From contig JAIORP010000120.1 of NCBI GenBank assembly GCA_021108075.1, positions 21,557 to 85,556 on the forward strand: a DNA stretch of 64,000 nt, read 5' to 3'. Position 1 is the first letter of the stretch, and each line of letters starts with the position of its first letter. The position numbers and the translations under genes were made by a program. Positions 26 to 51,801 of the stretch are shown one piece after another. The stretch is from Candidatus Omnitrophota bacterium (GTDB taxonomy: Bacteria; Omnitrophota; Gorgyraeia; Zapsychrales; Zapsychraceae). The notes under the pieces were generated by a model. It had not been told where the DNA came from. It was given only the letters and a program-made list of their open reading frames with translations, and did no database searches.

Positions 26-450
26 ATGCTAACATCCTCCATGGTATTTGAAGGGCTTGCGCTTATTGTCCTGGGATATGTTGCCTGGCGAGTGGCCTGT
101 CTAGCGGTCAGAATGATTTGGAGTATTGGTGCGATGATCAAAGATCAATTCGGCGCCAAGGGCCAATATATCATCGAGCGTGAGGGAGGCAGGGCCCGTA
201 AGACGAATAGAGGAGCGACCGCCATATCGATCATATTATTTATAAGCGGTTTTGTTTTCTTTTTTGAATCTGCCTGGGGATGGGTTGCCCATCAATCCGA
301 TATGTTGTCGCGGGAACTTCCATCGACCGGTATTGATATCATGAGCGTGTCACCTGTTCAAGCAGCATGGCTGATGATTGCGGCTTTCGGTCTGGTTGCC
401 GCGGGTCTCTTGATATGTCTCTTTAAACGTCAACGGGCTGACCAGCGATT
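26..450 (+). other. N-terminal hydrophobic segment with about 3-4 predicted TM helices
   Basis: Hydrophobic stretches LALIVLGYVAWRVACLAV, AISIILFISGFVFFF and AAWLMIAAFGLVAAGLLICLF, followed by basic KRQR. Confidence 0.5.
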
Positions 451-24400: not shown

Positions 24401-27400
24401 TGTGAGATACAGATGAATGTGCGGCTGAATAAAGAGATGGCGGGGATAGCAAAGGCAGAGCAGGATGCTGAAATGCCGGTTATTTTTGTAGGGGGGCTTG
24501 GAGGTTCCAAACGAAATGAGGCAATACGGTTACTGTCGGGATTAGGGATATTCCTTGAGGTAGAGGTATTTGTAAAAGGCATGAGCCTTCCTGGGGAGAT
24601 AGTCAAAAAGGTAAGAGATGCACGCTGTCCGATGATAGACGCGAAGCATATTGAACATACATGGTTTGGCCTCTGGTGTCTGGATAATCAGTTAAAGGGT
24701 GTAGGGGGGCATTTACAGGTTGTATCCGAAGATTCCGGAACAAAATTTGTATTGTATGTGCCTGTTAATACCACGCCGGAGCTTGTTAAGAAAAAAGAAC
24801 TGGAGGGAGGGCGTTCCATTAATATGGGATTTTTCTCAAAGGTGCTTGCGTATTTTTGCCGGCAGGAAGGGATAGATTCTGATGACAACGATGCCCTTGT
24901 TAAATTATTGCGGGAACTTTATGTGGAAGGATTAAATAAATTTAGAGAAGAACCACTGCCTTTCTGGCGAGAATCCAGTACAGAGCCACAAAAAATTTCC
25001 GGTGAAAATATAAGAGATCAAATTAAAGATGCGATGATGGCTCTGGAAGATTATAAATTGATGGAGAAAATCACAAAGAACCCTGCTGTTCAAAAAGAAT
25101 ATCAACGGATAAATCAGGAAGTAATAAAATATAATAAAGCATTGGGATTTAAAAATGTTGTTTTAAAAGTTAGGGATTTGAGAAATACAGGGCAGCAGGA
25201 CAGGCATGGCCTGGAGGTATATGTTCGCCTTGACGGCAGTTTGCAGATACGTTCAGCCTGGCTGGGACGGCATCCTTCGGCTGTTGGAGAGCAGGATTAT
25301 GCAACAGGTGTAAAGAAAAATGGTATTGCAGTCGACGATGAAGTAAACCGGAAAGAAATTATAAGCATCGACACAGATAAACTTAATCCTCTCGCAATAT
25401 ATTTGACAATACAAACGGAACTTGTCAGAAGAGGATTTTTTTGCCGCAATGAATTTGTAGAGGCTTTGGGTAAGTTTAAAGAGAACGGATTTATTCATGA
25501 AGGGTTGTATCGAAGGTTGCTGCATGTGGTTAGAGGGAAGGTGGAAAAGGTTGAACAGGGTAGGCAGGAGGAAGATCAGTTAATTTCGGATTATTCAAAA
25601 ATCGACCCTGCCATTAATTGGGTAAATCCTGAAGGTGTGCCGGAAGGATTGGAGGGGGCAGAGGAAGGGGCATATTCAGGAGATACTTTTGATACGAGGT
25701 TGAGTGGCGAGGAGATAAGAAACGGTAGCTTTTATTTGAGGGGAGCGCTCGGGGCAGCGTTTGCAAGGGCAGTGGCGCAAAGGGCATTGGCGCAGGCAGG
25801 GGATGGAGCTGTGGAAGAAGTGGAAGGAAAGATAAGGAACAAATTTGTCGGCTATATTATTAAGAAAAATAATAAAGGTGAATTAGTAAGCATTCTCACC
25901 GCCTACCACAGAAACAGCGATACAATCCTCATCAGCAAAGCACTCCCAGCAATAATTGAAGCACTTAATAAACATCCTGAAATAGGGCGTAAAAATGGAA
26001 AACTCGGCGCGGGAGATATCCTCGCACAGGATCTTTGTGACCACGAATTGTGGCATAGAGGGGAAGGCAGGTCAGGAGCTAAAGCAGAAAATGAAAGAGA
26101 GGCAATAGATATCCTTCGCCTCCATGTTCTGGCAAGAGAGAACGGTATCGACATTAACACCTTTGCAGATGTCCTGGTTGAGATGAACGTTATTACGCCG
26201 GAGTTTGCAGGATTGTTGAAGAAGCCGGATGTAACTAAAGGGGTGCCGGAAGGATTGGAGGGGGCAGAGGAAGGGGCATATTCAGGAGATACTTTTGATA
26301 CGAGGTTGAGTGGCGAGGAGATAAGAAACGGTAGCTTTTATTTGAGGGGAGCGCTCGGGGCAGCGTTTGCAAGGGCAGTGGCGCAAAGGGCATTGGCGCA
26401 GGCAGGGGATGGAGCTGTGGAAGAAGTGGAAGGAAAGATAAGGAACAAATTTGTCGGCTATATTATTAAGAAAAATAATAAAGGTGAATTAGTAAGCATT
26501 CTCACCGCCTACCACAGAAACAGCGATACAATCCTTATCAGCAAAGCACTCCCAGCAATAATTGAAGCACTTAATAAACATTCTGAAATAGGGCGTAAAA
26601 ATGGAAAACTCGGCGCGGGAGATATCCTCGCACGGGGTCTTTGTGAACGCGAATTGTGGCATAGAGGGGAAGGCATGTCAGGAGCTAAAGCAGAAAATGA
26701 AGTGGTAGAACGGAAAGGGCAAATAATAACAAGTCTGAAGATAAAAGGTAAGAGGCGACCTGTTAAATATAGATTGTACTGGAGAAAAGGCAAATTAATC
26801 TGTTCATCATTGGAAGATATTTCTCCTGAAAAAGCAAGAGAATTGGGGGTAGATAAGGTTAGTCAATTTAAAACTGATGTTAATGGGGTATTATGTGTTT
26901 TAGAAGAAAAAATATTTTTAACAAAGAAGTACAAAAACAGGGAAGGGTATGCGGAGGTTAATGAGGCTGGTGTAGTTTCGAAAATAATATTAATGAAAAC
27001 AAAAAGAGATAAGGAGGTAGAGATTGGGGTAGAACGGGAAGGGGAAATTATAACGGGTTGGAAGATAAAAGGTGAGAAGCATTCTGTTAAATATAGATTG
27101 TACTGGAGGAGGGGTAAATTTATTTGTTCATCATTGAAAGGTTTTTCTTTTAAAAAAGTAAGAAAATTGGGGGTAGATAAGGTTAGTCAGTTGAAAGTGA
27201 ATGCTTTGGGGGTATTGACCGTGCTTGGTGAGGGTATACCGATAGGGACTTGTTATGCAGAAAGAGAGGGTTTTGCTTTGATAGACGGTTCGGGAGTACG
27301 GGAGATAACATTGATTGCAACAAGGCGGGAGCCGGAAGAGAAAATAAAAATCAAAAGAGAGGGTAGAGTTATTAAAAAATTTGAATTTTATTTTCAGGGA

Positions 27401-30400
27401 ACTGAAAGTGTAAGAGAAGTTGCATATATTTCTTTAAGGCGGGAAGATGGGCACCTGATATCATATTCTTCCTTATGTGATCCTTATTTTATAAGTAGGA
27501 AAATTAAGAGAAATAAATTCAGCGGTATAGTAGAGGGCATGGAGGTGACTAAATTCGGGTGGGTAAGCATTGGGATAGATAACTTTTTTATTCCGCAGAC
27601 ACGCGGCTGGGCTGTAGATATTAAGTATGATAACGGAGAGGCAGTAAAACTTTATCTGATTAATCCTGAAAGTGGAGAAAGATTAGAAAAAGATGCGGAA
27701 GAGGTAAAGGTAGAAACAAGTGACGAGTGGACAGAAGAAAGAAAAGCAATGTTTAAGAGAAAAAAGGGTATTATTCTTGATAGGGCTAAAAGATATTGTA
27801 ATTATGCAGGTATATATGGAATAAATTTCCATGAGCTTGTTTCAGAAGGAGAAAAAGCATTAATGGGAGCAATATTGCGTAACTATAAACCTGGAGAAAT
27901 TAGATATGAATATGCAGTTCTTTGTATAAATGGAGGGATGTTAAACCTGATTGATAATGAGAGAAAAGCAAGAAATATCAGAAAGCAGGACAGCAGGAGG
28001 ATAGCCTGGTTATACAAAACAATGCAAGAGCTGGAAAAGGAATTAAATAGAGAACCTGAGGCTCAGGAGATATGTGAGGCGATGGATATAAGTATGGAAG
28101 AGTTATTTGAGATACAGAAAATTCGGGGAAGGTTAGCCACCTCTAGTATGGATTTTCCGACCGGAGGGAGAGGGGAAGAATACAGGTCAATGCATGAAGT
28201 AATAGGCGATAAGGCAATGTTAGCAGATGAGATAATGGAGGCGTCAGAACGGGAGGCAGCCATTAGAGATGCAATGAGTAGGCTGTCGGAAGAAGAAAGG
28301 GAATATATCAGGATGCTTTTTGGATTTAATGAAGAGATATATTCAGCGGAAGAAATTGCTCGGTTAGAGGGAATTACCTTGGAGAAATTTAATGTCATTA
28401 AATTCGAAATATTTGCGAAAATGGGAGAATATGTAAAGGAGTATAGTTCGCATGGATCGAGGATTAAAGGAAGAATTGAGCAAGATTCAAAAATCGACCC
28501 TGCTATCAATTGGATGGCTCCTAAAGGTGTGCCGGAAGGATTGGAGGGGGCAGATGAAGGGGCATATTCAGGAGATACTTTTGATACGAGGTTGAGTGGC
28601 GAGGAGATAAGAAACGGTAGCTTTTATTGGAGGGATTTGTCAGCGGGAGCGCTCGGGGCGGCGCTTGCAAGGGCATTGGCACAGGAAGGGGATGGAGATG
28701 TAGAAGCAGGGGAAGGAAAGACAAGGTACAAATTTGTCGGCTATATTATTAAGAGAAATGATGAAGGTGAATTAGTAAGCATTTTCACCGCCTACCACAG
28801 AAACAGCGATACAATCCTCATCAGCAAAGCACTCCCATCAATAATTGAAGCATTTAATAAACATCCTGAAATAGGGCGTAAAAATGGAAAATTCGGCGCG
28901 GGAGATATTCTCGCAGAGGCTCTGTTTAAACATGAACTGTCGCATAGAGGGGAAGGCAGGTCAGGATCAGATGTGGAAAAGGAACAAGACGCAAAAGATA
29001 TCCATTGCCACCGTGATTTGGCAAGAGAGAACAGTATTGACATTAATACCCTCGCGGATGTCCTGGTTGAGATGAATGTTATTACGGTGGCATTTGCAGG
29101 GTTGTTGAAGAAGCCGGACATGATTCCGCAGTCAGAGGTGAAAGGAGACAGGGAAGAAATTGTTTTGGAACAAAGTGGATGGGCCTGCGCGGCCTGTGGA
29201 AAATCTGTCGATGGTTTGATCCAGCGATGGGAAGAGACCATTATTGAAAGGAATGACCTGCAGGCGCTCAAAGCCCGGGTGAAGACATCAAGAACTGTTT
29301 ATGAGACGACATTAGACCATACGGGTGTTGATGCGCGTTATCTACGCGTTGGATCATTTATTTTAATCGATCGATCTGTAGATCAAGCGCAAGCGTGGCA
29401 GGCGGTATTACCCCATAACGTCATTTTAATCGAACGACCATTGGAGTATGACACATACATTGTCTCTATGATCGCCGCGCTGTTGGATCTGGCACAGGAA
29501 AATATTTTGAATAATGCTGTTGTGGAAATCCACGGTGTTGATACCGGATTGATGGTTTATGTGGCCTTGCGTTTGGGAGCAAAGCGCGTGGTTGGGATTG
29601 ACCGTGGAGAAGAAGCCATTCAACAAACGGCACAGTTGCTGAGTGACCATCATTACCGGGGGGCTGTTTTAACTGAAGAAGACTGGTTCACTTATGCGAG
29701 CGAACAGGATGAGGATTATGTCCTGGTTCAAGGGGAGTTAAAGAATTGGTATGCGGTATCGTATCAGCAACGTCAAAATTTACGCGGTCAAAAGGAGTAT
29801 ATCCGTCTCAATGATACGGGGCCGCATTATTCCATTCATCAAGACGCGATGCGAGACATGTTAAGAGACCCCGACGCTGTTGCCATCGTGCTTGGTAATT
29901 ATATTAATTCATCGCCTTTGGCCCGATCGCAAACCCCCGGCGGTTTAAAATCCTTAGGGGATGAAGTCGATATTTCAGCCCTGCAGGCCATCGGTTGGAC
30001 AGTGGAACAAATTGCTTATCCGACAAAATATAAAGATTTTGTGACGCTTGTTGCTCAAAGGGAGCGGAACGCGTCAAAGAAAAAATTGGCCGATCACCCG
30101 GTCGAAAATCTTGGCCGACAGTCCGGGGATCCCGGGTTTCTCACCGGCCGGCCAGTAACCGTACAGTCCATTCCACAACCGCGTAAAGTTTTTGTCGGAG
30201 GAGGTGAGCGCGTCAATCAAGAGGATTTCGTTCCTGTTATCACAGACAGCATCAAGCAAGTCGCGCAAACACAATTAACCCGGTTATTAGATCGATATCA
30301 TTTTGATTCCAATGCCGTCTTTTACCGTTTCCATCAGGGAACAGATCCAGCGCAAACGCTTGAACAGGAACGCCAACAGCTGATCGATGCTCAGGGTGGA

Positions 30401-33400
30401 ACATGTTTGGGTTTATCCTCTATGTTACAAGAGAACATGTTGACGGCATTATTTCGACCGGACTTTGCCAGTGACTTATCGCGCCGTCTGGGATCAAGGG
30501 TTGATACGCATATTTTAGAACATGATGACCGTCAATACCGTTTCGTCATTACTGTCGATGGCAAAAATTTTGTCATTCATGGGTATTTAATCGGCGCGTT
30601 AGCGATTGATCAATTCAATCACCGTTCCAGATCCCGCGTGTCTGCCCGGGAGAGTGAATATTATCGTTACCTGCATTATGCTAATATACTGAAAATTTAT
30701 AGTGAGCAGGAGTCGGTTGCCGCGTTTGTCAGCGATCCGGGCTTTGGTGTTCATTATCTCCTTCCATTAAATGAATCCGTTATGGGGTTACGCGCTCAAG
30801 TCAGGGTCCGGCCGTTAGCGCGCGATGAATGGCCTGTCTATCAATATGATAACCGTGAACTGGCGTGGTTCAACCGTCCGGCTTACCGGGTTTTTGGTGA
30901 AAGCATTCAGAATAAGTTGTTGATTTTAGAAGGGGTGTCCGCGCGCCCAATGGTCTTTGTTGATCAACTGTCTGAATCTGTTTACCGACGACGTTTTTAT
31001 CAAGGGTATCTCGCGATCAGCTTAAATAATATTCAGAGGATTATGCGTTTTGAAGCGAAGACGGGCAGAGTCAAGGTATTGGCCGAAGTATCCTTTGGCT
31101 CCGAACGAAGTCCGCGGTTGACGTTTAAGCTAAGATATTACAACGCGCAAGGAAAACGAATGAAAGTGGTCTTAAATGAAAAACAATTGCGCTTAGCGCT
31201 TGAAAACATGCGTACTTATCGAGAAGGGCGGGATCAAACAGTTTTGCCGAGACACAGCGCGATGGCGCTCGAAGCCGGAGAACTATTGGGACAAACACGA
31301 CAAGAGTGGGAAGACCGTATTGCCGTTATTTTAGATCAATTCGCATACCGTAAGGAAAAGACATTCAGGACTCAATCCGGCCTGTCTGAGAGCACTGTGC
31401 CGGAAGGCGCGTGGGATGTGGATCAGCGCACATATGTCACAGAAGATGACCGTGTTTACGATAAATTTGATTATCAGGATCTGGTCGAGCAGGGTTATAC
31501 CGTCTATAGGAATCATCAGGTCGAACTGGTATTCTTATTACGTAAAGACGCGTCGGTCGTCTTGATCGATGTCATTGCCGTGACAGATCGTCAAGCCATG
31601 GAATACATGGGATGGATCCATGCGAGCTTCCGGTCGCCGTTAATGCTTGACCGGTCCTTACATGATGTTGATTTACGTTTCACTTTGGCCACGGTTGAAT
31701 TCTTATCCGGACTGGACGCGAATATACTGGACGAGATTTATCACATGCCGCGGCAACAAGTGGCCTTGTTTGTCGATCTGTCCTATCAGAATGTTAAGAA
31801 ATACGCGCAATTTTATAATATTGATAAAATATTGATGAGTTCGGTCTTGAACCTCGCGCAGCACTCGGGATTTGAACGCTTCACCGTCAATCCGGCCCAA
31901 AATAAATACGACTATTACCGCGAACGTTTTCACGCAGAGTCCTCCGGTCATTTTACCCGGAACATGCTGGATATGGTGTATTACCTGGCGATTGACATTA
32001 CCGAACAGATCGATATGCCATATATTCTTTTTGATCGTGATCATTTGAACCGGCTCCGATATTTGCTTGTTGAACGCAGCCATCCAGCGCTTGATACTGT
32101 TGTCCGTGTCATTATTCGCGAACGCGCGACAGGACGTTATTTGGTGTTGCAAAAATTAGCGGCCTCAGTCGCTCCGGGCTGCTGGGAAACTCCTGGTGGA
32201 AACGTCGATACATACGAGACATGGCGACAAGCGGCCTTAAGGGAAACAGAAGAAGAGACCGGTTTTGATATTGATTGGGTCGAGGCATTGAATCCAGGGC
32301 AACCGGTGATTTGCTGTTTTGACCGGTTTGTCCGCAGAATTTATGGTTTTTATACGGAGATGGATCGCGTGCACGAACCGTCTATTAATAATAAGTTCAA
32401 AGAAGATGGAACATGTGAAGATAAGCATGCCGCAGCCAGTTGGAAGACGGAGAAAGAAATAAGAATACTTATGGACATGAACCCATCTGAACAGGCCTCC
32501 ATGCTGAAGACCAGCCGGGTTGTTTTTGATTTGCTGTTGTCCGATGGCGTTATCGACATGGAACGGGTGTCAAGAATCGTTCATTGTGTTCGTGATTTAC
32601 CGCGAAATTGCGCTTATAAGAATGTCTCCACGAAAGAAAAATCTGATTTATTAACACATCTCCTGATTCAGATCCACCGGAAGCAAATAGATGAGGTTGT
32701 CGAGCGGCAATGGGATGACGACGGAAACATTCAAAATTATTACATCAAGGCCGGAGCATTAAAGACTGCTCTGCAATCTAAATTGTATGTTCAACCCGTT
32801 AAGGATAACTATTGGCATGTGGTCACAGATAAAGCCCAGTTTTATCGTGGGCCGGAAGGAACGGATAACCCTTGGACGATTCAAGACCTTGATGATGACG
32901 ATTACGTTGGAGCACGCAAACGTAAAAGACGTTCCAGACACGATAAAGAATCCGTTGTTAAATTAGAGATGGAGAAAAAAGCACAGCCGGATCATCAGAT
33001 TGAATACATTCAAGAACGCCGGATCATCAGCCGTAAGTTTATCACCCGCTCCATCAAAGAATTGGATATGTATTGGCAGATGTTTGATGTGATTTATCCG
33101 GCGATAGCCATTTATGGTTCAGCTCGAATCCCATCTGCTGTGGGCAGAGACCTGGCCAAACGTTTTTCAACATTAGGCTACGCGATCACAACCGGTGGAG
33201 GACCGGGTTGTATGGAGTCAGTCAACCAGGGCGCGTTAGAAGGCCTTCGACGGTTATCTGTTGGTTTAGGCCTGAAATTGCCGTATGAAGATAAATTAAA
33301 TGACTATGTTAACATCCCATTTGAATTTCAATACCTTTTCACGCGGTTATTAGCCTTCCTCACATTTAATCGCGCCCATCTGCATGTCAAAGGCGGGCTG

Positions 33401-36400
33401 GGCACATTAAATGAATTCTTTACCGTGACAGCGGCCAAAGAGATCGGTTTTATCTCGGGAGATACACCAATCGTCCTGATCGATAAATGGATGTGGGGTG
33501 TTTTTGATCAATTGATTCGGCAATGGGATGATCGCGGCTTTAGCTCTTACCGTGCGCAGGATATGTATCAACTATACGGCGCAAAACAAAGATCTCAAAT
33601 TGTCCATGATGTCCATCAGACCGCGAAGCATATGCAACGCCAGAACGTGTTATGTATTAACACCGAACTGATTTTTAGGGAATTGAATAATATTAACCGG
33701 CGGCTGAAGGGGCTTGGACCGACAGTCGGTATTATCGGTGATGACCGCAGTATACGCGAAGGAGAGTATGACTTCGGCGTCGCTGAAAGATTGGCGTCAG
33801 TTTTGGCAAAAGAAGGTCTTTCTATCCTGCGCACCAGTGAACGGGGGATCGGCGACGCTGTGCATCGGGGATTTGTCGATGCCCGCCGTGTTGCGCGGCA
33901 GGCTCCGTACAGAGTCAAAGAGCGTTTGATCGGTACAGCCCATGACATCAACGGAAATGGGAATGGTACAGCCCATACATTAAAACTATCATATGACTTT
34001 TTAAAGAAGATCGTGCTGAGCAGTCCATACACGGATGCCTTGATTGTCTTCCCGGGCGGTTATCACGTGATGGATGTTTTGATGGAAGAAGCGTGCTTGA
34101 TCAAGACCCACAAGATCGCTCCCCGGCCGATAATCCTCATGAACAGCAGGTATTGGACCCCATGGCGTGAAGATTTTCTGCGGGCTAAAATGGTCGCTGC
34201 CAAAACAGCCAATCATAAGGAAATCAATTATTTACATATCGCGGATACGCCGGAACAGGTCAAAAAAATTCTGATGCCGCATTTGTATCAGCAAGGTTGG
34301 TATGGTGAACAGGCCAAGACCTCAAAGTCCAGGGCGATCGTCTCTAACATCGGCAAGGTTTCTTCGAAGAGAAAGCAGCGTAATAAAAGCAAGAAGAATC
34401 AAAATGGCGATAAGAACGATCATTCGATCCGTCCGGTTGTCCAACTTCTTATCGGTCTATTGTTATTCTGGTGGCCGAAAGTGGGTAAAGGTTTTAGGCG
34501 TGTTGGTACTGAAACGTTCAGGGCGCGGAACGACTATTTATTAACATCAGCAACTTATCGCGGCCCACCATGGGTGAAGGTTATCGCGGCCTTTGTCCGA
34601 GCTTGGCTTTTACCGGTTGCCCGGGGCGTTGATGCGGACGGTCAGGTGCGCTGGTATGTGCCGCGATCGTACCGAATTTTAAATCTGTCCTATCAGACTC
34701 AATATTCGATTGACCGGCATGAAAGACAATATTCCGCACGTCCTATCCTCGGACTCTTTTTAGGGGAATTTAAAGGCCTTCGGGCCCAGGTACAGGGATT
34801 CCTCAATAAAGAGTGGATGTTTGAATATTTAGATCGCTTAGACATCATGCAGTATACACAGAAAGATAGCTTATACGGACGAGGATTATCAGTGCCCCGT
34901 GAACACGCAACTTCTTTATTCGACCGGCTCGTTCGGTCCAAACATCTGCACGCGTCTTCGGATGTTTTAGGGCGTGAATATCAACGTGTTTTCAGCCAGT
35001 ATTCTGCCTTCTGGGCTGATCATATTCTCGCGAGCCATGCTTTGATATTATCCGGGGCAAAAAATATCCGGCGGGATTCTGTTACGGTTGTCGGTGTTGG
35101 CGCGGCAAGGGAGATTCCTTTAACGGAATTAGCGGTGCTATTTAATACAGTCAAGATTATTGATATGGATGACTCAAGTTTGAGAGATGCCTACCTATCT
35201 GTTCCGGCCCAGGCTGTTGATGAAACCGGGGTACTATTGCGGTCGAAAATTCAGATGATTCAAAGGGATATAACAGATGATCAGATGCTTCAGTTAGCGC
35301 GGGCAGGATTGAAGATTATCGAACAGAATACAGAACCTCAAAAAGCTTATTTAGAGTTGGTCAAATTGTACCGCGACACAAAATTGCAACCGGTGTCCGC
35401 AATGGATGACGATTTGGCCGCCTCCTATATTGTTTCTTCATGTGTTTCCAGCCAAATCATGTGTTATCCCGTTGATTTTATCTACCAAAAATTCTCTAAG
35501 AAATTCGGCCTAAAATGGGATGACCTGGAAGCATGGAATAATATTTTGGAAAAAGATCAGGGATCTGCGCTATTGACGGTTTACCACGACGCGTTTGAGC
35601 GACTTCAGTTGCAGGTCTTCAGCCAGCATGTCCAACTGCTGCAGTCCATCGTCCATCCAGAAGGGCATATTTACTGGTCTGATACGGTCATATCATTACC
35701 GCTGCTCCAGAGCATGAAAAAGGAAGATATGGGGCTGTTTTATGACCGGTACTTCAGGGCGATCAAACCTGATATCGCAAGGATGGATGCTGACAGCGCG
35801 GCGCAGGCAAAGTTTGAAGATCGTAAGCTTTATTACCGCCGAAAACATCCGTCATTGGGCGAAGACCGGATCGCAGCCATTGCTTATATATCATTGATGG
35901 GTGAACAGATTCTTCCATTTAAGAAAGAATATAAGGGCATCTGGACTTTGATGAAAATAGCGCCAAAGGTTTCGACATCTGCTATCGGCCACATGCTGAA
36001 TCAGGAACAACTGCAACAGCTGGAGTGTATTTTAGGAACACCTGACAGCCGCAGAGACTGGTTCTGGGTCGCGAATCCATTTAATGTTTCCCACGGAGAG
36101 TCAAACGGCGCTTTCCTTGTTCAATCCAGATTGTTTACAGCACGGGATAAAAAAGCACTTCTCTCAGACAAGGCGTCGAGTGACCGGTCCGCTCTGGTTG
36201 AGCAAGAATTCTCCATGGAAGTCGAAGACCCCGGCCTGTTTGAAGAACAGATGAGTTGTACCGCAAAGAATGGTTGGTTCTGCGCGGCGTTACCGGATAT
36301 GTCCGGAAAGGTGGCGGTCATTCGCCGGTCAGGGATCGGGAAGGCGAAAGCCTTATCGGAGATCGAACAGATTATCCGTCAGGAACAATACTTACAGTTC

Positions 36401-39400
36401 AAACCTTTTACTTTGACGTATTCCTGGATTAAACAGGTGTTGGCATATTACGTCTCCATCAATAAAACAATACAGGCGCAGCAACTAACCGCGATGGTTA
36501 AACAGGGATTTGTCCGTGCCGGCCCATTGAAATATTCAAGAGGTTTCGCTTTCGGGGATTATATTGTTATTGCCGATGAAGATGTTTGCAATCCAGGTGC
36601 TCTTCTCGTCAGCTTGTCGAATGGTGCACGGCTTTCCGTTCTCAATCATCGGACACGTTTATACTTTGGCATATACCAGTTCACTCAAAGATTGCGGCAA
36701 TATCCTGTCCGGCTCCGTGACCGCCGCAAATTAAATCAAGCCGGATTAATCAAGTTTGCCGGAAGACATAATAAAATCCTTCCGGAGAAGTTGAGCAAGT
36801 CGTATCACGAATTAACCGGAATATACATCGGATTAAAAGGCCTGTCAGAAACGCTTAAATATTTCGGTATCGCTTCAGGCGTAAGCGGGGCGTTATGCGG
36901 CCAGGTCTGGCTGGGCGTCCTTGTCTTTCTGTTAGGCCTGTTTGCCGGTGGTTTAACGCGTATGAGTGTCACTTTAGTCCTTAAAGTAACGCGCTACCGG
37001 GATATCCCGCTGCGACGGTTATTCTATCCACCGGCGCTATTGCCCTATTTTGGTTTCCCGTATTGTCTGCTTGTCTTATCAACACCCAGGTATACGCTCA
37101 GAGAACTGCTGGCGTTAAGAAATATTTATTACAAAGTCAAATGGGGGCTCGTTAAAGCGGTTAAAGATGGTGATGTCACAGATGGACAAATGCAGGTTAT
37201 TCGCGGATCCTTACTGGAAGTTTCCCGGGATATTCTTGATTATCAACGAACGCATTTAACCCTCCGTCAAGGATATCGCGGAAGAGCGGAACGTAGGATG
37301 CGTATCAGATATCCAAAATTCAGTTCAAAGACAGAACCGTATATGTTCACAGCCCTGCTTAAAGGACGTCCGTTCTTATTTGTCGGTTCAAGCGCTGGCA
37401 TCGAAAGGACGAGGAAAAAGGTGCAGCAAAGATTCGGCTTGAAGTATCAGCCGAAAATATATTACTACGATATCAGTCAAGTTTTGAATGTTTCCAACGG
37501 TGATGCCTGGCCAGAAACTTTTGTTAAACCGTTAATGGCTGATACAGAGGAACGTTCCCCTCAAACGGTGGTGCATATGGAACCGCGAAAGAAAGATGCC
37601 CCTCAGCCACGCATGACCGAAAGTCGAGTTAAGTTGGTCTATCAAAATGTGCATGGAAAAGTAATCGCTTGGGTTATTAATAAGAAAGGATTATTTGTTC
37701 TAAGGGAACAAATATTTGAAGGGGTTCTGGAAAAACAAATCTTCATCGGTATTTATCACGTTTCAGCAGATGATGGAGCAGAAAGTCGTGTCGGGGAGCG
37801 TAAGTATGTTATCCGGGAGGATAAAATTATTGCCGGAGCTTCAGGAGATTATGATTTCCATATTGACCCGTCCTACAGATCTCTTGGTCTGGGAGTTGTG
37901 GTTTTGACCCACGTATTTAAACAAGCGGTGGCCCATCAAACAGATATGATGATAATTCATTTTCCGGAATACCGTATCCAACAGACATTGCAGCGGGTAT
38001 ATGGTTTTGGTCAGGAACGGTTTAAACCGGGTATAGGCCGTTTTATCGAGAAAACTCATTTGCGGCAGCAAGCCGACGAATTTGTCTGGCTCGTAGAGGA
38101 TCATTTAGCGCGGCGTCAAAAGGAAAAAGCGTTTCAGTCCCGGTTCATAACAGCGTTTCAAAAGGGCGCTGAACCAATTGAGGTTATTTTAGAGAAGAAA
38201 GATCTCTCGGCTGATTCCATTCATTCTCAGGCAGGTTTAAGCCGGGCAGGTCGAATCAAAGAAATTTTATCGCGTAACTGCGTCTATCAGGCAGTAACGG
38301 TTAAAGAACGGAGATTATTGGTTCAGGCCATTGAGGCTTCCTCCCGGGAGGACAGAGCGCTGTTAAGGGTTGCGCCGCATCCGGTATCCGGTCAGGCAAA
38401 AGTCTGGTTAGATGCGTCCTTTGCCAGAAATTTTGTTCAGCAGAAGATGAAATATCCTATTTATGTTGAAAACATCAAACCAGGGTATTGGCATGCCATC
38501 AAAGAATACCGGCCAGGATCTGTTCCCATCTTCGATCCAGCAGTGACGGGTTGGATAGGTGCTAAGTTAAAGAACCGGGAGAAAGCTCAAATTCTTATGC
38601 AAGAGATTGAATCTTTATTTGCGCAAAAGCAAAAGAATGTTTCATCCGCTCGTCGATTTTTTATTCGCCAACGCGTTAAATCGCTACAGGCCCGGGTCAG
38701 GCGGTTTAAGAAAGACAAGAAATATGCGACGTTGATTTCTGATTTAGAACAATGCAAAGTTGATATGGCAAGCCCGTGCGACTGGAACAAATCATGGGAT
38801 CTCGCGATCCGCCAACAAAAAAGCAAGAAGCAAAGAGTTCAGACATCAGGATTTTTAAAGGAAAAAGTGTTTGGCCTGATGCGTCGGCGACACAAAAAGG
38901 GCGCACCGGATGAGGTCCTGGATGTTGACTCAATTGAAGAGGTACAGGAAGTAGAGTCGGAACAGCCAGAAACTGTTGCCGCGCAATCAGCAGATCTTCG
39001 ATGGAAGCCAACACGTCCAACGTATACCGGACGAGAAATCCGGAAATTTTCGCGCATAACAATCAATCAGAGAACAAAATTTATCAGCGATTTAGAGCGT
39101 GTCCGGCTTCGAGTAAACGGATTCGCGCGAGAACAATTGACCGATAAGACAAAAGCAGCGTTCACTCGGGATATTAAGGCCTTATCCGATAAGATTCATG
39201 CGGGTAACGGGGAAAGCGCGTCTTTCTTCCGAAGAGAAATCAAAAAGATTCAAGCCGTTCTTGATCAGGTCGATGTCCAGGAGATGAAAGATGCTGAAGG
39301 AGTGATAAAGGACAAGAACGGCAAGAATAAAAAGAGTGACGGCCAGTTCATGCCAGCAGAAGGGGATCAAAGCGCTCAAGCGGATATGGTTGGTACGATG

Positions 39401-42400
39401 ATATTGATGCTTGCTATAGATTTGAATCTCGACTTAACACAGCCCGCGCTTTTTACTCGTTTGAAACGGATTTATGAGAAGATGCCGGAAGCCATCGATA
39501 CGTTAGTAACCTCTAAGAAATCATCAGTGCCAGAACACAAAGAACAGTTGAAAATATTAGTGAGCCGAGATGCAACCGATTTTGACATTGAAGAGCGGCT
39601 CAACATTGTCGATCAGATCGCAAACCCTTCTATTGCTTTTGAGGTCACGCTGTCTGAACTCAACAATGATCAAATTGATAACATCATCCGTTATGCACGT
39701 TTAAACCGTTCTGTCAAGCAGGATAAGGTTGAGGTGAACATGGCGGACTTCTTCAATGGACCTGACGGTAAGATTGAGGAACGTATAAAAGAAAGGATTT
39801 CCCGGGAGGCGTATAACCTCAGTAATGCTGATCAGCTCAAAAATAATTTAAGAAACGTTGAGGACGTTATCGACGAACTAGAAGGATTAAAGCAATTGAT
39901 TCAAAAAACGCTGGATCAGTTTCCTCAGCATGAAATTAAAAACTTCACGATTACGAACCGCACAAGCAATGATATCTGCATCAGAATTAATGATGAAAAG
40001 ATTTTAAATGAATTAAGGATCGGGACCCTGATCACGTGTGATGACCATCAGGGCCGATGGACGTTAGCCATTCGGGATATTAACGATGGCCATATCCGGT
40101 GTGCTTCTACTAAAAGTTTACGATTATTAGTCCCTCGAACCGTCAGGATGACGTTTAAAGCTCAGACCTCGGCAGAGGATCAGAATATCAAGGTTTTAAT
40201 CAAGTTATTAAGGCAGTTGAGAAAGCAAGGTTATACGGGCGTCGAGGCTGTTGATTGGGCCTTACGTTTACGCATCCCGCCAAGATCGATCCAAAGTCTG
40301 CAGGAGTTAAAAGCGGCAAAGGGGCTAACAACAAAAATGGCCGGCTTAGATGAATTTCAACGCGCCGCTGTTTATTTAATGGCAAAAACGCGGTTTGGGT
40401 TTGTCCATGGTCCGGCTGCGAGCGGAAAAACACGGGTGATCAGGGCCGGGGTCGCGACACTCATCCATCAATTTAAGCGTTTCATTTTCACGGCAGCTTA
40501 TCAAAATGTCAATGTCGATGACTTAACAACAAAGATCGGACAGGATAAAAGTATCCCGGTTGTGCGTCTTGGACATCCCACGAGTATCGCCCCGGATGTT
40601 TATGATGCGTATGCCTATAAAAATAAAGAGGCCTGGAACCGGTTTAAAAATAAATATGATGATCTTAATACGTTCCAAGACGAATGTGGCGCGACGTTAA
40701 CGATGACCTTAATGGGTGGGGCTTATGATGAATCATTGCAGAAATTTTTAATATATCGGGCGAAAAATCCAAATGACGCGCGTTTCAAGAAGTTAACGCT
40801 TATCATCGATGAAGCCGCCATTATTAGTTATGTTGATATGCTTGTCGCCTTGTATTTGATCAATCCTTATGCGGTTATTTTTGTCGGTGATTATGTTCAA
40901 ACCCGTCCATTACCCTTTGATGCTGAATATCAAGATGTTATCCCGCAAAAGCATATCGCTCAAATCATTGAACAACAGGCAAAGGACGTTCGCCGCTATG
41001 AAAAGAGCCTGTTCGAAGATTTAGCGGATGAGCCGTATGACCGTGTCCGTTTGTTACGCAATTATCGTAACCATTGGGCGCATGTTGATTTGATGCAGCC
41101 GTTTTATTCCTTCCCATTGCTCAGCGCCAGCCGGGAAAGAGGGGACCCATTAGAAGAAGACACCGTTGTTATTCTCGATACCGCTCAACCGGGCGTCCTG
41201 GACGAATGGCTTGATCAAAAAGGATTAACATGTTTAGATTTTACGACCAGTCGAACGGCAATTCATCAAGGTCATCAAAGTTATGCCCTTGCAGGAGAGG
41301 CCCGTTGGTCGGTCGGAAAAATCATGCGGTATGTTTTGGCACGTCAAAACCAGGAATCCGCTTTTGACGCAAAGGATTATTTATTCATCAGCCCATATTG
41401 CGGCCAGGTTAAAGAGATCAGCCGGCAAATAAGGACGATGAGTCGTCTGCACGGGTTAGCCTTGTGGCAGCAGCAAGCTTTATTACAGCGCGTGTTAACA
41501 GCACGTTTAGCACAAGGGTTAGAAGCCCTGGATGTTGTGATTTCTTTTGGACGGGCAACAGCTCCGAATAAAAGAAATGTCCGGGCGGGAGCAAATGGTT
41601 TTGCCCGTATGAATTTGCCTTTGGTCGCTGATCCTCATGCTTTACTTGTGATGCTCTCACGCGCCCGAAAACGTCTTTTTGTGATCGGTCATCGTCCGAC
41701 GCTGGAGTTTCTCAGCCGGAAGGGATCTGATCCGCAGATGTATAGCAGGCTCTTTAACTACAAACCGATGCCTCGCCGGCAACATCAAGATGATGGCTGG
41801 TTCTGTGCTATGTCAACACCTGTTTTCCAACCGGCTGTGACTGAACCGATCAACGATGAGGCAGCCCAATTAATATCAAAGGGCATTTTCTTGGAATTGA
41901 AACGTAAAATTTCAGAAGGCATGTTCAATCAAGAAGAGAATATCCGCTGTCAATCGAAGGCCTATTCGCATGACCGCATTTCATATTATCGTCTCGAAGA
42001 AACAGACGGGAAGCTGCGTCATGTCATGGATACGGTTTATATGCGCGTCGGACATTTATTTGTCATGAATGCAGATATTTGGAAGGTGCTAACACCAATC
42101 ATGCAAGACGCGATTCGAACAAATGTGATTATTGTTCCAAGTATTAACGCCTTATCCTTATCCCGCAATAATTATTTTTATTACACTATTTCTACGATCG
42201 TTGCCATGATGCAGACGGATTTAAGAGGAAAAAGAGTGATTGATGCCGGCGCAGCAGAAGGCTTACTTGGGCTGGTGGCTTTGAAATTAGGCGCCCACTC
42301 GGTTGATTTGATCGAATATGACCGGCGCTTATTAGAAGGAGCTCAAGGTATTTTATCACTGAACGGTTACCAACCCGATATTCATTACCGTATCCATTGG

Positions 42401-45400
42401 ACCAGTCTCGTCCATACGTATTTTTTATCATTGCGTTTGAATCAGACTGATTTGCCGAGCGTACTCATTTCCAATATCGGCCCGTGGGCTTGGACAGGGG
42501 ATGTATCCAATAAGGATTCCATTGATTTATTGGCGGCGTTGAAGAATGTTCAAACATTTATTGCCAGCGGCTATGACTGGGATCATACCACGATGATTGG
42601 AGCAGACCATGAATACATCCGTCCACTCGGTTTCAAAGAATTAGACTTTGTTCAATGTCAGCTCGGGCACAAGGAATTGCTGACCTGGATGGTTAGCAAG
42701 ACAGAACCGAGCTCTGTTAAGAACGAAGAATATTTCAAATATATTAAAGATTGCGACTTGGACAATCTTCTGACGGCCAGCAATGTCTACCGGTATTTAG
42801 AGGAAGAGATTGATCCATCATTGGCCGTAGTCCTCCGTTTTGCTGCAGACAAGATAACCGGCGCTGAGTTGATGACGCAGATCGTCTTTATCCCGTCCGA
42901 TGGTTTATTCAAGGAAAGAGTGCTGTTGCGCAGCGCGTTTCTCCAAAAGCATTTGCCACTTGCGGTCCAAGGACAATTGTTCATTGAACCAACGGTCAAT
43001 TATCATATGTTGGCACATGCAAACCATTCCAAAGCGCTGTCCTTAGCTGACGCTGATCCAAATATTTTGATAGGTCCTCGTCAGGAAGAAGATTTAATCA
43101 GTGATTATCCTGAAGAGAGTTTAGCTCCGTATTGGACGTGGCTCGCTCCTGTCGCGCGCGCCTCGGTTGAATCGAAATTCCATCACGCCTTACGACCGAT
43201 TATCCCACTGATGTTAAGTGTATTGCAATACGTGAAAGTCCCTGGAGCGAAGCGATTAGCAAAGATCGGGATGGAAACATATCGTGTGAACAAAGAATTT
43301 TTCAGGGAGCATCCTTATTTACGTGGTCCACCTTGGATCCGGGCCTTATTTCAGCCTGTTGCCAGAGGGTTTGACCACGATAATGCCATCTGTTGGCAAT
43401 TGCCGTATCCGTACATTAAGAAAATCAAACATTCTTCACGGTTTTTCATTGAGGTTCATGAACGTCAAATATTCGACATTGAAGTCCCCAAACAATTCAG
43501 ACGCCGTGTCTTGTCACAGATCGCGGCTGCCGTCCTGCGTTTTATCGGCGAGATTAAAGCCTGGGTTTATTACTTCAGGAATTACAAATCCTTGCTCAAA
43601 CAATATGTTCATAAAGAAGAAAAGAGATCAACAGTTGTTGACCGGTTTATTTTAGACTTTAAACCATTGACAGACATGACGCCACAAGAACAATTGTTGT
43701 ATGCCCGGGCGAATACGGAAGCACGTGTTAAGCGCAAGGAAACATGGATGCGGGAAAACGCCCAGGAGGTTCAGCGCCGAGACGGTGAGACTCTTATGGC
43801 CTGGGTCAAACGTGTGTTGTATGACTTGAACTGTGAAGTGAGTGAAGCGGACTTGGACATTGTTGAAATATCAGACCAGAAACTTGTGACGTCAAACTGT
43901 AACAACTGTCCGATCCTTGACGCTTGTGAGAATCTGGGACTTGATACACACTTCGTCTGTAAAGAAATTATGCATAAACCATTTGCCCGTTTGGTGGAAC
44001 TCATGGACCCGCGCCTGACATTTGACCGGGATTATGTCTATGGGTTACGACCGCAAGCTTTGAGCTGTATTGAGATTATAACGATTGATGAAAGCAAAAA
44101 AGACAACAATCACAACGGCCGTCCTAATAATGGTCAACATACCCGGGTGATTAACCGCAAAGACATTCTTCCTTTACTTTTTGGGAATTGTTTATTGAAG
44201 GGGCTTTTGGACTTGGAAGCCTATGTCCAACTGGATAATATTTATAAACATATTTTTACTTATGATGGTCCTGAAAAAATCATAAAGATCATTACGGATG
44301 ATCACGGGCAAGAACGGCTTTTGGTCAAGAAGGATTATATCCAGAGATTCATCCCCGAGGACATAAGAGATAAGCTGATGATCAAACCAACCGCTTATGG
44401 ATATCATGTCCGAGTCGTTGATGATGTTCCTGCCTACGAGCAGGAAGACTATCAAGCGTTCAGGTTGATGCCCGATGGAATATTTCTGGGGATAGATGAT
44501 GCATCAGAAAACACGAATGAGTCAGAGGCGCCTGCGGCACCGCTGAATGTTGTTGGTCCAGAGGGTCCTCCGGACGATGAAGACGATGACCGGATTCCTT
44601 GGTGGTGGTTTTTGTTAGCTTTCATCATGTGGGGGCTATTACTTCGCAAGCATATTTTTCAGGAACAAGACTTTACAAATCCAGATCCATTATTGAAAAG
44701 AGTTGAAACCGTATATTATCGCGCACCGCTGTTAGAGCCGAGGCCAAGGAATCCAAGATTAAGGTTTATCGACGGCATATTCAAGAAGTACGCACCTGTT
44801 GTTGATCCGACCCCTGCAAAATGGCCATTCCCGGCAGATAAAGAAAGGTTTCCGGAGACCGTAATTCCGGGGCATATCCTTTCGGACGTGCGTATCCGCA
44901 AGATGCCCCCCAGGATCCTCGTCCAGCCGTATACGGTCTTTCCAATGCTGTATATTCAGCGGGAGGTCGATCAAATGGGTCTGCCGCAGTTTGGGCCAAT
45001 GCCCCCGAATACTTTTATTGATGTCCGTCCTTATAATTTTGATTTCTTTTTCTTATTCGTGAAACTCATGGCGATCGGGTATGGCAGTTATTCTGTTGTC
45101 ATATTAGGGTCCATCATGATGATTTTTTTGCCAAGAAGTTGGATGGACTTATCACCGGTTTTTCTTGTTATTGAGTTTGCGACAGCTTGGCGGAGGAAGA
45201 TACAAAATGTGATCAGACCGCTTACGTCTGCACGCTATCAAAGACCGGATTATCGGTCATTGTGGAACCATGTTTTTGGAAATATGTATTTAATGACTAA
45301 AAAATTTCTTATGTCGAGATCCCTGACCGAAGATATGAAGAATCAGCGGTTGATCAAAACAACCTCTGACGGAGGTCGGGATGTGTCTGACAATGTTCCT

Positions 45401-47525: not shown

Positions 47526-47550
47526 ATGATGCAAAAAAGGATAATTGATC

Positions 47551-51776: not shown

Positions 51777-51801
51777 CGTTTAATTATGGGAGGGACTTAT
51801 T

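What the first reader, a model, noticed from the sequence alone, without database searches (positions are those of the whole stretch)
44446..46672. The C-terminus consists of three degenerate ~0.8-1 kb repeats, each with a buried hydrophobic hairpin
Each unit starts (Y/D)Q(A/T)FRL(M/I)P(D/A)G(I/L)(F/L)(L/M)G and contains a PxDPD(G/R)P segment. Each has a roughly 50-aa hydrophobic block (F(F/L)F(L/S)FV(K/N)..., ...IFLPRxxxDxSPxFxxxEFATxW) and ends ARYQ(R/T)PDYRSLW(N/D)H. Copy 1 also has an acidic DDEDDD stretch followed by a Trp-rich TM helix (IPWWWFLLAFIMWGLLL). The last copy is truncated exactly at the stop. A repeated membrane-inserting C-terminal module is reminiscent of pore or translocation domains of large toxins, but has no obvious named homologue.
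Basis: partly seen in the sequence, partly recalled or inferred. Interest (0 to 1): 0.6.

Follow-up and report, generated by a model that had tools for sequence, protein, structure and literature searches.

The report
Triplicated hydrophobic tail of giant protein
The last 743 amino acids of a 22,742-residue Omnitrophota protein are three diverged tandem copies of an orphan module, a proline-rich spacer followed by a hydrophobic helical block; it is most likely a C-terminal membrane tether and fits what is already known about these giant proteins.

Summary
The repeats are real. Three tandem units (969, 801 and 459 nt) end a giant ORF from a Candidatus Omnitrophota MAG. That ORF is 22,742 aa on its source contig, and the window cuts off its N-terminus. 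Each unit has a Pro-rich head or spacer, a roughly 95-aa helical hydrophobic core, and the motif ARYQ(R/T)PDYRSLW(N/D)H.

Several details of the finding need correcting:
- Copy 3 is short because of an internal deletion of about 140 aa, not because the stop truncates it.
- The stop position is conserved in the only relative found.
- Copy 2 has lost most of its hydrophobicity.
- PxDPD occurs in two of the three copies.

No homologue turned up in Pfam, NCBIfam, PHROGs, PDB, the protein searches or the contig scans. The exception is one syntenic metagenome contig. It conserves only the terminal unit (dN/dS about 0.18) and carries its own, different tandem repeats upstream.

The internal copies evolve under relaxed constraint (core ω 0.36–0.65, head ω about 1) but contain no stops. 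The hydrophobicity of the cores falls between same-genome TM helices and soluble controls. Copy 3 holds the longest charge-free run (37 aa) in 15,549 aa. AlphaFold2 gave no usable model.

Best reading: a lineage-specific C-terminal membrane-hairpin anchor, expanded by recent tandem duplication. A toxin or pore role is unsupported. Interest is modest.

The parts
26..46675 (+). Window part of the giant ORF (15,549 aa here; 22,742 aa on the source contig). It carries Bac_transf, HD_5, HD_4, several LOG/SLOG, HATPase_c, Sigma70_r3, NUDIX, SF1 helicase and HEAT domains.
44318..44401 (+). Linker 0 (LLVKKDYIQRFIPEDIRDKLMIKPTAYG). It is homologous to the two inter-unit linkers and marks the 5' boundary of the duplicated segment.
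   Evidence: (family D3)
44444..44569 (+). Unit 1 head (EDYQAFRLMPDGIFLG...VVGPEGP). Pro-rich and predicted non-helical.
   Evidence: (D2)
44570..44752 (+). Insertion unique to unit 1: acidic PDDEDDDR, then the Trp-rich helix IPWWWFLLAFIMWGLLL (44594-44644), then RKH... The WW19 sum of -15.5 is among the three lowest in the protein.
44753..45010 (+). Unit 1 variable Pro-rich insert. It is homologous to the unit 2 insert and absent from unit 3.
45011..45289 (+). Unit 1 core: hydrophobic block 45038-45133, amphipathic helix 45173-45226 (muH 0.65), motif ARYQRPDYRSLWNHVF 45230-45277.
45290..45373 (+). Linker 1 (LMTKKFLMSRSLTEDMKNQRLIKTTSDG).
45413..45847 (+). Unit 2 head (45413-45538, with PMNTVDPDGP) and variable insert.
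45848..46126 (+). Unit 2 core: degenerate hydrophobic block 45875-45970 (interrupted by K, Q, P, S, R, E and R), amphipathic helix 46010-46063 (muH 0.64), motif ARYQTPDYRSLWDHVF 46067-46114.
46127..46210 (+). Linker 2 (FLIKKAYIPRFIYEDLKNNRMIITTVDE). Conserved in the relative L002.
46214..46381 (+). Unit 3 head (PGDQTFRLMPDGLFMG...PVDPDRP) and short spacer. The variable insert is missing.
46382..46672 (+). Unit 3 core, the terminal unit and the only one conserved in the relative: 37-aa charge-free block 46394-46504, helix 46544-46597, motif ARYQRPDYRSLWNHIF 46601-46648, tail RVNYLSGC.
46673..46675 (+). Stop codon. Its position relative to the motif is the same in L002.

Best explanation
The region is the C-terminal end of an Omnitrophota multi-enzyme giant protein.

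The functional element is the terminal unit, U3. It has four parts:
- a flexible Pro-rich spacer;
- a 35-37-residue charge-free helix-turn-helix block;
- the sequence FLPRxW and an amphipathic helix;
- an invariant basic/aromatic motif, RYQRPDYRSLWxH.

I infer that the block inserts into the cytoplasmic membrane as a hairpin or re-entrant wedge. The amphipathic helix and the motif would lie at the membrane interface. This would tether the C-terminus of a protein that is already stitched to the membrane by other hydrophobic segments.

U1 and U2 are products of tandem duplication of a linker + head + variable + core segment within this lineage. They have since evolved under relaxed constraint. 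U2 has largely lost its hydrophobic character. U1 gained an insertion carrying a probable transmembrane helix.

U1 and U2 are kept free of stops mainly because any stop would remove U3. They may add spacer length or extra weak membrane contacts.

Shown: the repeat architecture, the duplication boundaries, the rarity, the differential constraint and the hydrophobicity ranking. Inferred: membrane insertion, hairpin topology and the tethering role.
For: ARCHITECTURE AND DUPLICATION
- Unit structure and similarity.
- The linker is triplicated, including a copy before U1.

THE TERMINAL UNIT IS THE CONSERVED ONE
- The only relative is L002. It is syntenic, with flanks 75% identical at nucleotide level.
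- L002 aligns only to the end of U2, the linker and U3 (40% aa identity over 212 aa).
- The U3 core is 55-58% identical to L002, against 47-49% for the U1 and U2 cores.
- NG86 omega for the U3 core against L002 is 0.17-0.18, bootstrap CI 0.09-0.37.
- The stop position is conserved.

RELAXED INTERNAL COPIES
- Paralogue core omega is 0.36-0.65.
- Head omega is 1.0-2.1 with low dS (0.18-0.40).
- The head motif is not conserved in L002.

THE READING FRAME IS MAINTAINED
- The frame has 0 stops, against 33-48 in the other frames.
- Simulated random divergence of 14% leaves a unit stop-free in only 0.4-6.5% of trials.

HYDROPHOBICITY
- U3 has the longest charge-free run in 15,549 aa (37 aa; L002 has 35; the charged fraction is 0.27).
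- The U1 and U3 cores rank among the 18 best Hessa-scale segments of the protein.
- They exceed all soluble controls on the Hessa and WW scales.
- An amphipathic helix follows the block: muH 0.65 in U1, 0.64 in U2 and 0.38 in U3.
- AF2 places helices on the block, but at low confidence.

CONTEXT
- The organism is Candidatus Omnitrophota.
- The domain set matches the published multi-enzyme and signalling giant proteins. About 94% of those carry TM helices, and internal diverged repeats are the rule.
- L002 has independently expanded different repeats at the same position.
Against: - The cores are only marginally hydrophobic. Hessa19 is 1.3-1.5, against -1.5 to -5.8 for TM helices of membrane proteins in the same window.
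- KD19 is 1.8-1.96, against 2.4-3.15 for those helices.
- A buried segment of the protein's own LOG domain reaches Hessa 2.7, KD 1.88 and WW -10.7.
- No dedicated TM predictor such as DeepTMHMM could be run.
- Both AF2 models are unusable (pLDDT 38.8 and 35.8).
- Flanking charges do not give a clean positive-inside topology.
- Synonymous sites between the two lineages are saturated (dS 1.7-2.7 or undefined), so the orthologue omega values are rough.
- In L002 the gene is interrupted by a frame change and stops upstream of the last unit. That lineage may therefore express the unit separately or not at all.
- Only two lineages are available.
Confidence: 0.5

Rival explanations
1. The core is a small soluble all-helical domain. 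Its aromatic-rich segment forms a buried hydrophobic core, and it serves protein-protein docking or oligomerisation at the C-terminus rather than membrane insertion.
For: - The hydrophobicity is intermediate and overlaps with a buried LOG-domain segment.
- The most invariant residues are polar or aromatic (FLPR, RYQ.PDYRSLW.H), as expected for a binding surface.
- Copy 2 tolerates charged residues inside the block.
Against: - A 35-37-aa charge-free run is conserved in two lineages. The longest such run in 8,301 aa of the enzymatic part is 19 aa.
- AF2 finds no compact fold.
- No soluble family matches.
Confidence: 0.22
2. The whole region, U3 included, is functionless duplication debris at the 3' end of a fast-evolving giant gene. 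It is tolerated because it is harmless.
For: - Head omega is about 1-2.
- Paralogue core omega reaches 0.65, with a CI that includes 1.
- The region evolves faster than every neighbouring gene: dN is 0.36-0.83, against 0.07-0.24 for the neighbours.
- L002 shows frame disruptions and unrelated repeats at the same place.
- No homologues exist elsewhere.
Against: - The U3 core against its orthologue gives omega of about 0.18 (CI 0.09-0.37), with 29 invariant positions across four sequences.
- The stop position is conserved.
- The frame stays open through 743 codons despite 23-33% nucleotide divergence between copies. For the three units together, the simulated chance of this at 14% random substitution per unit is of the order of 1e-6.
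Confidence: 0.15
3. One reading: a repeated pore-forming or translocation module, like those of large secreted toxins (RTX, MARTX, polymorphic toxins).
For: Only the generic combination of a very large protein with repeated hydrophobic C-terminal segments.
Against: - No toxin, RTX or translocation Pfam or NCBIfam domain was found anywhere in the 15,549 aa.
- There is no GGxGxD repeat.
- The neighbours are an SPase I-like protein, GntR, an ABC-2-type ATPase with its permease, and XrtK with an MSEP-CTERM protein. They are not T1SS, T5SS, T6SS or T7SS genes.
- The domains that are identified (HD, LOG, NUDIX, helicase, sigma-70, methyltransferase, histidine-kinase ATPase) are nucleotide-dependent and of cytoplasmic type.
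- Only one of the three copies is conserved between lineages.
Confidence: 0.04

Closest known systems
Omnitrophota giant multi-enzyme / signalling proteins ('Archaeovorin'-type, West-Roberts et al. 2023, bioRxiv 10.1101/2023.11.21.568195; 'multi-enzyme cluster' class, Nielsen & Lui 2026, bioRxiv 10.64898/2026.06.07.730766)
   Same: - The phylum is the same.
- The length is comparable: 22,742 aa.
- The Pfam repertoire matches: HEAT_2, HATPase_c, NUDIX, Lysine_decarbox, HD and methyltransferase domains.
- Hydrophobic segments are scattered along the protein.
- There are many diverged internal duplications with no recent nucleotide tandems.
   Different: - The C-terminal unit itself matches nothing outside one sister lineage.
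- No SecA_DEAD domain was seen in the window part. The N-terminal ~7,200 aa were not examined.
- Neither paper, as far as read, describes this module or a conserved C-terminal anchor.
Reticulon/REEP-type membrane hairpin plus amphipathic helix (functional analogy only, from general knowledge)
   Same: - The hydrophobic stretch of about 35 aa is too long for one span. It has a central polar or Gly turn (WHCG, GYGS).
- An amphipathic helix follows it.
   Different: - There is no sequence relationship, and no Pfam hit at E<=1.
- The source is bacterial, and there is one hairpin per unit.
- The hydrophobicity is marginal and the topology is untested.
PEP-CTERM / MSEP-CTERM exosortase sorting signals (an XrtK-like exosortase and an MSEP-CTERM protein lie 4.5-8 kb downstream)
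   Same: A C-terminal hydrophobic element in a genome that encodes an exosortase system.
   Different: - The giant protein has no PEP or SEP motif.
- Its hydrophobic block ends 56 aa before the stop instead of being followed by a short basic tail.
- There is no NCBIfam hit.
RTX/MARTX and polymorphic-toxin C-terminal modules
   Same: A very large protein with repeated C-terminal segments.
   Different: There are no RTX nonapeptides, no toxin or translocation domains and no dedicated secretion genes nearby.

Membership tests
Omnitrophota giant multi-enzyme proteins | Encoded in an Omnitrophota genome | tested here: met
   Neighbouring MutS, ABC ATPase and MSEP-CTERM proteins are exact matches to NCBI entries MCD4780667.1, MCD4780659.1 and MCD4780664.1, named 'Candidatus Omnitrophota bacterium'.
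Omnitrophota giant multi-enzyme proteins | Length of at least 10,000 aa | tested here: met
   15,549 aa in the window; the called gene is 22,742 aa on the source contig.
Omnitrophota giant multi-enzyme proteins | Many distinct enzymatic or signalling Pfam domains, none dominating (HATPase_c, HEAT_2, NUDIX, Lysine_decarbox, HD...) | tested here: met
   Pfam scans compared with the lists.
Omnitrophota giant multi-enzyme proteins | Scattered transmembrane helices | tested here: inconclusive
   Hydropathy scales give about 15-18 TM-grade segments. No trained TM predictor was available.
Omnitrophota giant multi-enzyme proteins | Divergent SecA DEAD / preprotein-binding domain (present in 'most', per West-Roberts 2023) | tested here: not met
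   No SecA Pfam hit at E<=1e-3 in the 15,549 aa of the window. The N-terminal ~7,200 aa outside the window were not examined.
RTX/MARTX/polymorphic toxin pore or translocation module | Recognisable toxin, RTX or translocation domain, or GGxGxD nonapeptide repeats | tested here: not met
   No such Pfam or NCBIfam hit; the regex GG.G.D has 0 matches.
RTX/MARTX/polymorphic toxin pore or translocation module | Dedicated secretion system genes adjacent (T1SS HlyB/HlyD/TolC or similar) | tested here: not met
   The neighbours are an SPase I-like protein, GntR, an ABC-2-type ATPase, a permease, XrtK, an MSEP-CTERM protein, MutL and MutS.
Helical membrane hairpin anchor (functional class, not a sequence family) | Charge-free hydrophobic stretch of about 30-40 aa with a central turn, conserved between lineages | tested here: met
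   37 aa in U3 and 35 aa in L002, the longest in the protein; the turns are WHCG/WHCG.
Helical membrane hairpin anchor (functional class, not a sequence family) | Hydrophobicity sufficient for membrane integration | tested here: inconclusive
   Values fall between the same-genome TM helices and the soluble controls. U2 fails.
Helical membrane hairpin anchor (functional class, not a sequence family) | Experimentally membrane-integral, with both ends on the same side | not testable with these tools
   Needs fractionation and topology reporters.
PEP-CTERM/MSEP-CTERM sorting signal | Signature motif + TM helix + basic cluster at the extreme C-terminus | tested here: not met
   There is no motif in the last 60 aa, and the block ends 56 aa before the stop. 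No NCBIfam hit.

The most novel reading that the evidence does not exclude
The terminal unit founds a previously undescribed, lineage-restricted family of monotopic 'hairpin plus amphipathic helix' anchors. It would staple the C-terminus of a 22.7-kaa, mostly cytoplasmic multi-enzyme protein to the inner membrane of an ultra-small Omnitrophota cell. The 3' end of the gene would be a hotspot where such spacer-anchor modules are repeatedly and independently amplified: three copies here, and a different repeat family in the sister lineage. This would tune the reach or the number of membrane contacts.
Probability: 0.3. Interest if true: 0.45.

Novelty: new member of a known kind. Interest (0 to 1): 0.3.

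Why it matters
How proteins of tens of thousands of residues are positioned and held at the membrane in Omnitrophota is an open question. The published surveys rest on topology predictions alone. A small, conserved, experimentally tractable C-terminal module of about 100 aa could be tested for membrane targeting in a heterologous host. The independent repeat expansions at the same gene end in two lineages illustrate how these genes grow. The case is one orphan module in two metagenomic lineages, with an inferred rather than demonstrated function. It fits the already described pattern of repeats plus scattered hydrophobic segments, so its wider impact is limited.

Tried and rejected
HOMOLOGY SEARCHES
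- Pfam, NCBIfam and PHROGs scans of each unit gave nothing.
- PDB phmmer and a profile hmmsearch gave nothing. The only row was IF-3 at E 1.2, which is noise.
- Three searches of the 5.8-billion-protein set gave nothing. The queries were the unit profile, the core profile and the last 1,166 aa.
- That index did not return P0001 even though P0001 was a row of the query. A negative result from it is therefore weak.
- The exhaustive 1.84-billion-representative HMM search returned one hit, P0001. It did not return the giant protein itself. Very long proteins may be missing from that library, so giant homologues could have been missed.

CONTIG SCANS
- Two GTDB genome scans, two JGI metagenome scans and one IMG/VR scan all returned nothing.

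STRUCTURE
- AlphaFold2 was run on unit 3 with a 4-row alignment, and on the whole 743 aa as a single sequence. Mean pLDDT was 38.8 and 35.8.
- Because these models are meaningless as queries, fold search was not run.

OTHER ATTEMPTS
- I looked for closer strains to obtain unsaturated dS. L003 and L004 do not reach the giant gene. L005 and L006 are identical to the window.
- Tandem Repeats Finder does not see the repeats, because the copies are too diverged and the period exceeds 500 nt.

IDEAS CONSIDERED AND REJECTED
- Exosortase sorting signal.
- RTX-type toxin.
- Assembly artefact.
- Non-coding 3' region.

I did not attempt a full topology model, because the charge flanks are ambiguous.
Full report
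WHAT IS THERE

The finding lies in the last 2.2 kb of a single open reading frame that spans window 26..46675 on the + strand. The window cuts this gene. On its source contig (ENA ERZ26872899 NODE_24, 100,871 bp) the called product is 22,742 aa. Exact matches of neighbouring proteins to NCBI entries named 'Candidatus Omnitrophota bacterium' identify the organism.

Pfam finds the following in the 15,549 aa visible here:
- a bacterial sugar transferase;
- HD_5 and RelA/SpoT-type HD_4 domains;
- several LOG/SLOG ('Lysine_decarbox') domains;
- two HATPase_c domains;
- a sigma-70 region 3;
- NUDIX;
- an SF1 helicase (AAA_11/AAA_12);
- weak methyltransferase matches;
- HEAT repeats.

This is the repertoire listed for Omnitrophota giant proteins by West-Roberts et al. 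2023. It also matches the 'signal-transduction/regulatory' module and the 'multi-enzyme' class of Nielsen & Lui 2026.

THE OBSERVATION

The three repeats are real.
- Unit starts (Q[AT]FRL[MI]P[DA]G) are at nt 44453, 45422 and 46223.
- The ARYQ(R/T)PDYRSLW(N/D)H motifs end at nt 45271, 46108 and 46642.
- MAFFT gives 47% and 54% identity to copy 1.
- blastp gives E 3e-61 for U1-U2 and 5e-33 for the U1-U3 cores.
- At DNA level two blocks are 67-77% identical.
- An independent Logan assembly from another sequencing run is identical over the last 8,728 nt of the gene, so this is not a repeat-collapse artefact.

Several details of the finding need correcting.
- The units are 969, 801 and 459 nt long.
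- Unit 3 has a complete core and motif. It is short because it lacks the variable insert of about 140 aa and the trailing linker.
- The linker sequence is also present just before unit 1 (44318-44401). The duplicated segment was therefore linker + head + variable + core.
- PxDPD(G/R)P is present only in units 2 and 3.
- The acidic stretch and the Trp-rich helix lie in an insertion unique to unit 1.

ANATOMY OF A UNIT

The head and variable parts are the most proline-rich stretches of the entire protein: 10-18% Pro against 3.6% overall, and the top 150-aa window starts at aa 14845. AlphaFold2 models them as coil, at low confidence.

The core of about 95 aa consists of four elements:
- an aromatic-rich hydrophobic block (YHFQFFFLFV...IIFLP) with a central polar turn;
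- the invariant sequence FLPR;
- an amphipathic helix, with muH 0.65, 0.64 and 0.38 in U1, U2 and U3;
- the invariant motif PL..RYQ.PDYRSLW.H.F.

IS IT MEMBRANE-EMBEDDED?

No trained predictor was available, so I used three hydropathy scales and calibrated them on proteins from the same window.

| Sequence | Hessa19 minimum | KD19 maximum |
|---|---|---|
| Bona fide membrane proteins (permease, XrtK, MSEP N-terminus, SPase I) | -1.5 to -5.8 | 2.4 to 3.15 |
| Soluble controls (MutS, MutL, ABC ATPase, GntR, CheC) | 4.2 or higher | 1.81 or lower |
| U1 and U3 cores | 1.46 and 1.29 | 1.81 and 1.96 |
| U2 core | 7.3 | 1.49 |

- The U1 and U3 cores have WW19 sums of -8.8 and -13.4. The soluble controls do not go below -4.9.
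- The cores are therefore beyond every soluble control on the Hessa and WW scales, but well short of canonical TM helices.
- A buried segment of the protein's own LOG domain reaches 2.7 (Hessa), 1.88 (KD) and -10.7 (WW).
- U2 is no longer TM-like.
- The strongest argument for membrane embedding is the charge-free run. U3 has 37 aa, the longest in 15,549 aa with a charged fraction of 0.27. The orthologue has 35 aa. The longest run in 8,301 aa of the enzymatic region is 19 aa.
- The Trp-rich helix of U1 has a WW19 sum of -15.5, among the three lowest in the protein. It is the only segment to reach pLDDT of about 51.

Overall, membrane association is plausible. A hairpin or re-entrant geometry fits the length and the central turn. 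It is not demonstrated.

RELATIVES

The unit is almost unique.
- Pfam, NCBIfam, PHROGs and PDB gave nothing.
- The word-indexed searches of the 5.8-billion-protein set gave nothing.
- The GTDB, JGI and IMG/VR contig scans gave nothing.
- The exhaustive profile search of 1.84 billion representatives returned one protein, P0001 (344 aa, E 7e-42).

P0001 sits on a 7.3-kb JGI contig, L002. L002 is syntenic with the window: SPase I-like, GntR, ABC ATPase, a 462-aa permease and a 130-aa ORF follow in the same order. Those flanks are 75% identical at nucleotide level.

Only the end of U2, the linker and U3 have counterparts in L002 (40% aa identity over 212 aa). The U3 core is the closest to it, at 55-58% identity against 47-49% for U1 and U2. 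The protein ends at the same position, 10 residues after SLW(N/K)H.

Upstream, L002 has its own repeats with a 480-570-nt period and about 90% nucleotide identity. They encode a G/P/T/V-rich spacer plus a short hydrophobic helix. There is a frame change and stops between the called genes. Whether these disruptions are real cannot be decided from the data.

The giant protein did not retrieve itself in the representative search. Very long proteins may be absent from these libraries, so giant homologues could have been missed.

EVOLUTIONARY SIGNAL

All values below are Nei-Gojobori estimates with bootstrap confidence intervals.
- U3 core against L002: omega of about 0.18 (CI 0.09-0.37). dS is saturated at about 2, so this figure is rough.
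- dN for the U3 core (0.36) and for the linker plus head (0.83) exceeds that of all five neighbouring genes (0.07-0.24).
- Within the window, paralogous cores have omega 0.36-0.65 with dS 0.49-0.76.
- Heads have omega 1.0-2.1 with dS of only 0.18-0.40.
Its similarity among copies therefore reflects recent duplication or gene conversion rather than protein-level selection.
- The paralogue dS is much lower than the orthologue dS. This suggests that U1 and U2 arose, or were homogenised, after the two lineages split.

All 743 codons remain open, with 0 stops against 33-48 in the other frames. In simulation, 14% random substitutions leave a unit stop-free in only 0.4%, 1.8% and 6.5% of trials for U1, U2 and U3. 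The simplest reading is that U3 is the selected element and that upstream stops are purged because they would delete it.

MECHANISM PROPOSED

- Shown: an orphan module, triplicated in tandem; the terminal copy is conserved; the internal copies are relaxed.
- Inferred: U3 is a C-terminal membrane tether. It would comprise a flexible Pro-rich spacer, a helical hairpin dipping into the cytoplasmic membrane, and an interfacial amphipathic helix with a basic/aromatic motif.
- The identified domains are nucleotide-dependent and of cytoplasmic type. Elsewhere in the protein hydrophobic segments often occur in close pairs, for example aa 2745-2763/2775-2793 and 12289-12307/12332-12350. That pattern would keep the catalytic domains on one side of the membrane.
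- U1 and U2 act at most as extra spacers or weak contacts.
- Confidence in the anchor reading is about 0.5.

RIVALS

- A soluble helical docking domain (0.22).
- Functionless duplication debris, including U3 (0.15).
- A toxin-like pore or translocation module (0.04). No toxin, RTX or secretion feature supports it.

COMPARISON WITH KNOWN SYSTEMS

The host protein meets the tested criteria for the published Omnitrophota multi-enzyme giants, with one exception: no SecA-like domain was seen in the part available. For that class, scattered TM helices (about 94% of proteins) and diverged internal repeats (65% of proteins) are described as the rule.

The module is not a member of any named family. 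Its resemblance to reticulon-type hairpin-plus-amphipathic-helix wedges is functional analogy only. It is not an exosortase sorting signal, despite the nearby XrtK/MSEP-CTERM pair.

VERDICT

This is a genuine, correctly spotted repeat with some details wrong. The membrane reading is plausible and the toxin reading is unsupported. I classify it as a new member of a known kind and score its interest at 0.3.

Noticed in passing
window 1-46675: The ORF listed as starting at nt 26 runs off the window. There is no in-frame stop in nt 2-25, and the called gene is 22,742 aa on the source contig, so about 7,200 N-terminal residues are not in the window.
   Followed up: partly
window 20001-30000: There is strong purine bias on the coding strand: GC skew 0.27-0.42 and AT skew 0.12-0.19, against about 0.1 and 0 elsewhere. 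The region is inside the giant ORF and overlaps its most recent internal duplications.
   Followed up: no
window ORF aa 8536-8690 vs 8738-8892 (nt ~25631-26701); also aa 8511-8736 vs 9481-9699, 1232-1338 vs 1932-2038, 3732-4168 vs 10993-11428: The giant protein has further internal duplications at 95%, 74%, 77% and 47% identity. The last is a double LOG/SLOG cassette. The C-terminal triplication is thus one of many such events.
   Followed up: partly
window ORF aa 11463-11568 and 14384-14481 (nt ~34412-34729 and ~43175-43468): A hydrophobic helix followed by a conserved 'RGPPW...PVARG.D...ERQ' module occurs twice (32% identity, E 5e-15). The second copy lies about 330 aa upstream of the repeats. 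It has no family assignment.
   Followed up: no
window ORF aa 1080, 1316, 2016, 2876, 8673, 9636: There are six HExxH motifs, four of them inside duplicated modules (DAHEQAH x2, HELWHRGEG/HELSHRGEG). They may be metalloprotease-like sites that could process the giant protein. This was not tested.
   Followed up: no
window 46856-47332 (-): A signal peptidase I-like (S24/S26) gene lies convergent to, and 180 nt downstream of, the giant gene. It is conserved at the same place in L002. I did not find an AxA site after the hydrophobic blocks by eye.
   Followed up: partly
window 47545-50211 (+): A GntR (PmtR-like) regulator, an ABC ATPase and a 462-aa polytopic permease form an operon-like set with overlapping starts and stops. 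They are 83-87% identical at amino-acid level to those of L002.
   Followed up: partly
window 51159-54816 (+): An XrtK-like exosortase lies next to a 1,004-aa MSEP-CTERM/VIT-domain protein (TIGR04286, E 4e-125), forming an exosortase sorting pair.
   Followed up: partly
L002 1-1800: The sister lineage has its own tandem repeats with a 478-573 nt period and about 90% nt identity. They encode a G/P/T/V-rich spacer plus 'LIPNELFRLARVYYYALILARMIVLTVPQS'. A frame shift and stops split the gene calls into 3-1286 and 1390-2424. It is undecided whether this is real or an assembly error.
   Followed up: partly
window ORF aa ~9300-9450 (sigma-70 region 3, Pfam hit at residues 1729-1769 of the piece starting at nt 22826): A sigma-70-like segment is embedded in the giant protein, flanked by repeated ~150-aa modules. 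This is an unusual place for a sigma-factor domain.
   Followed up: no
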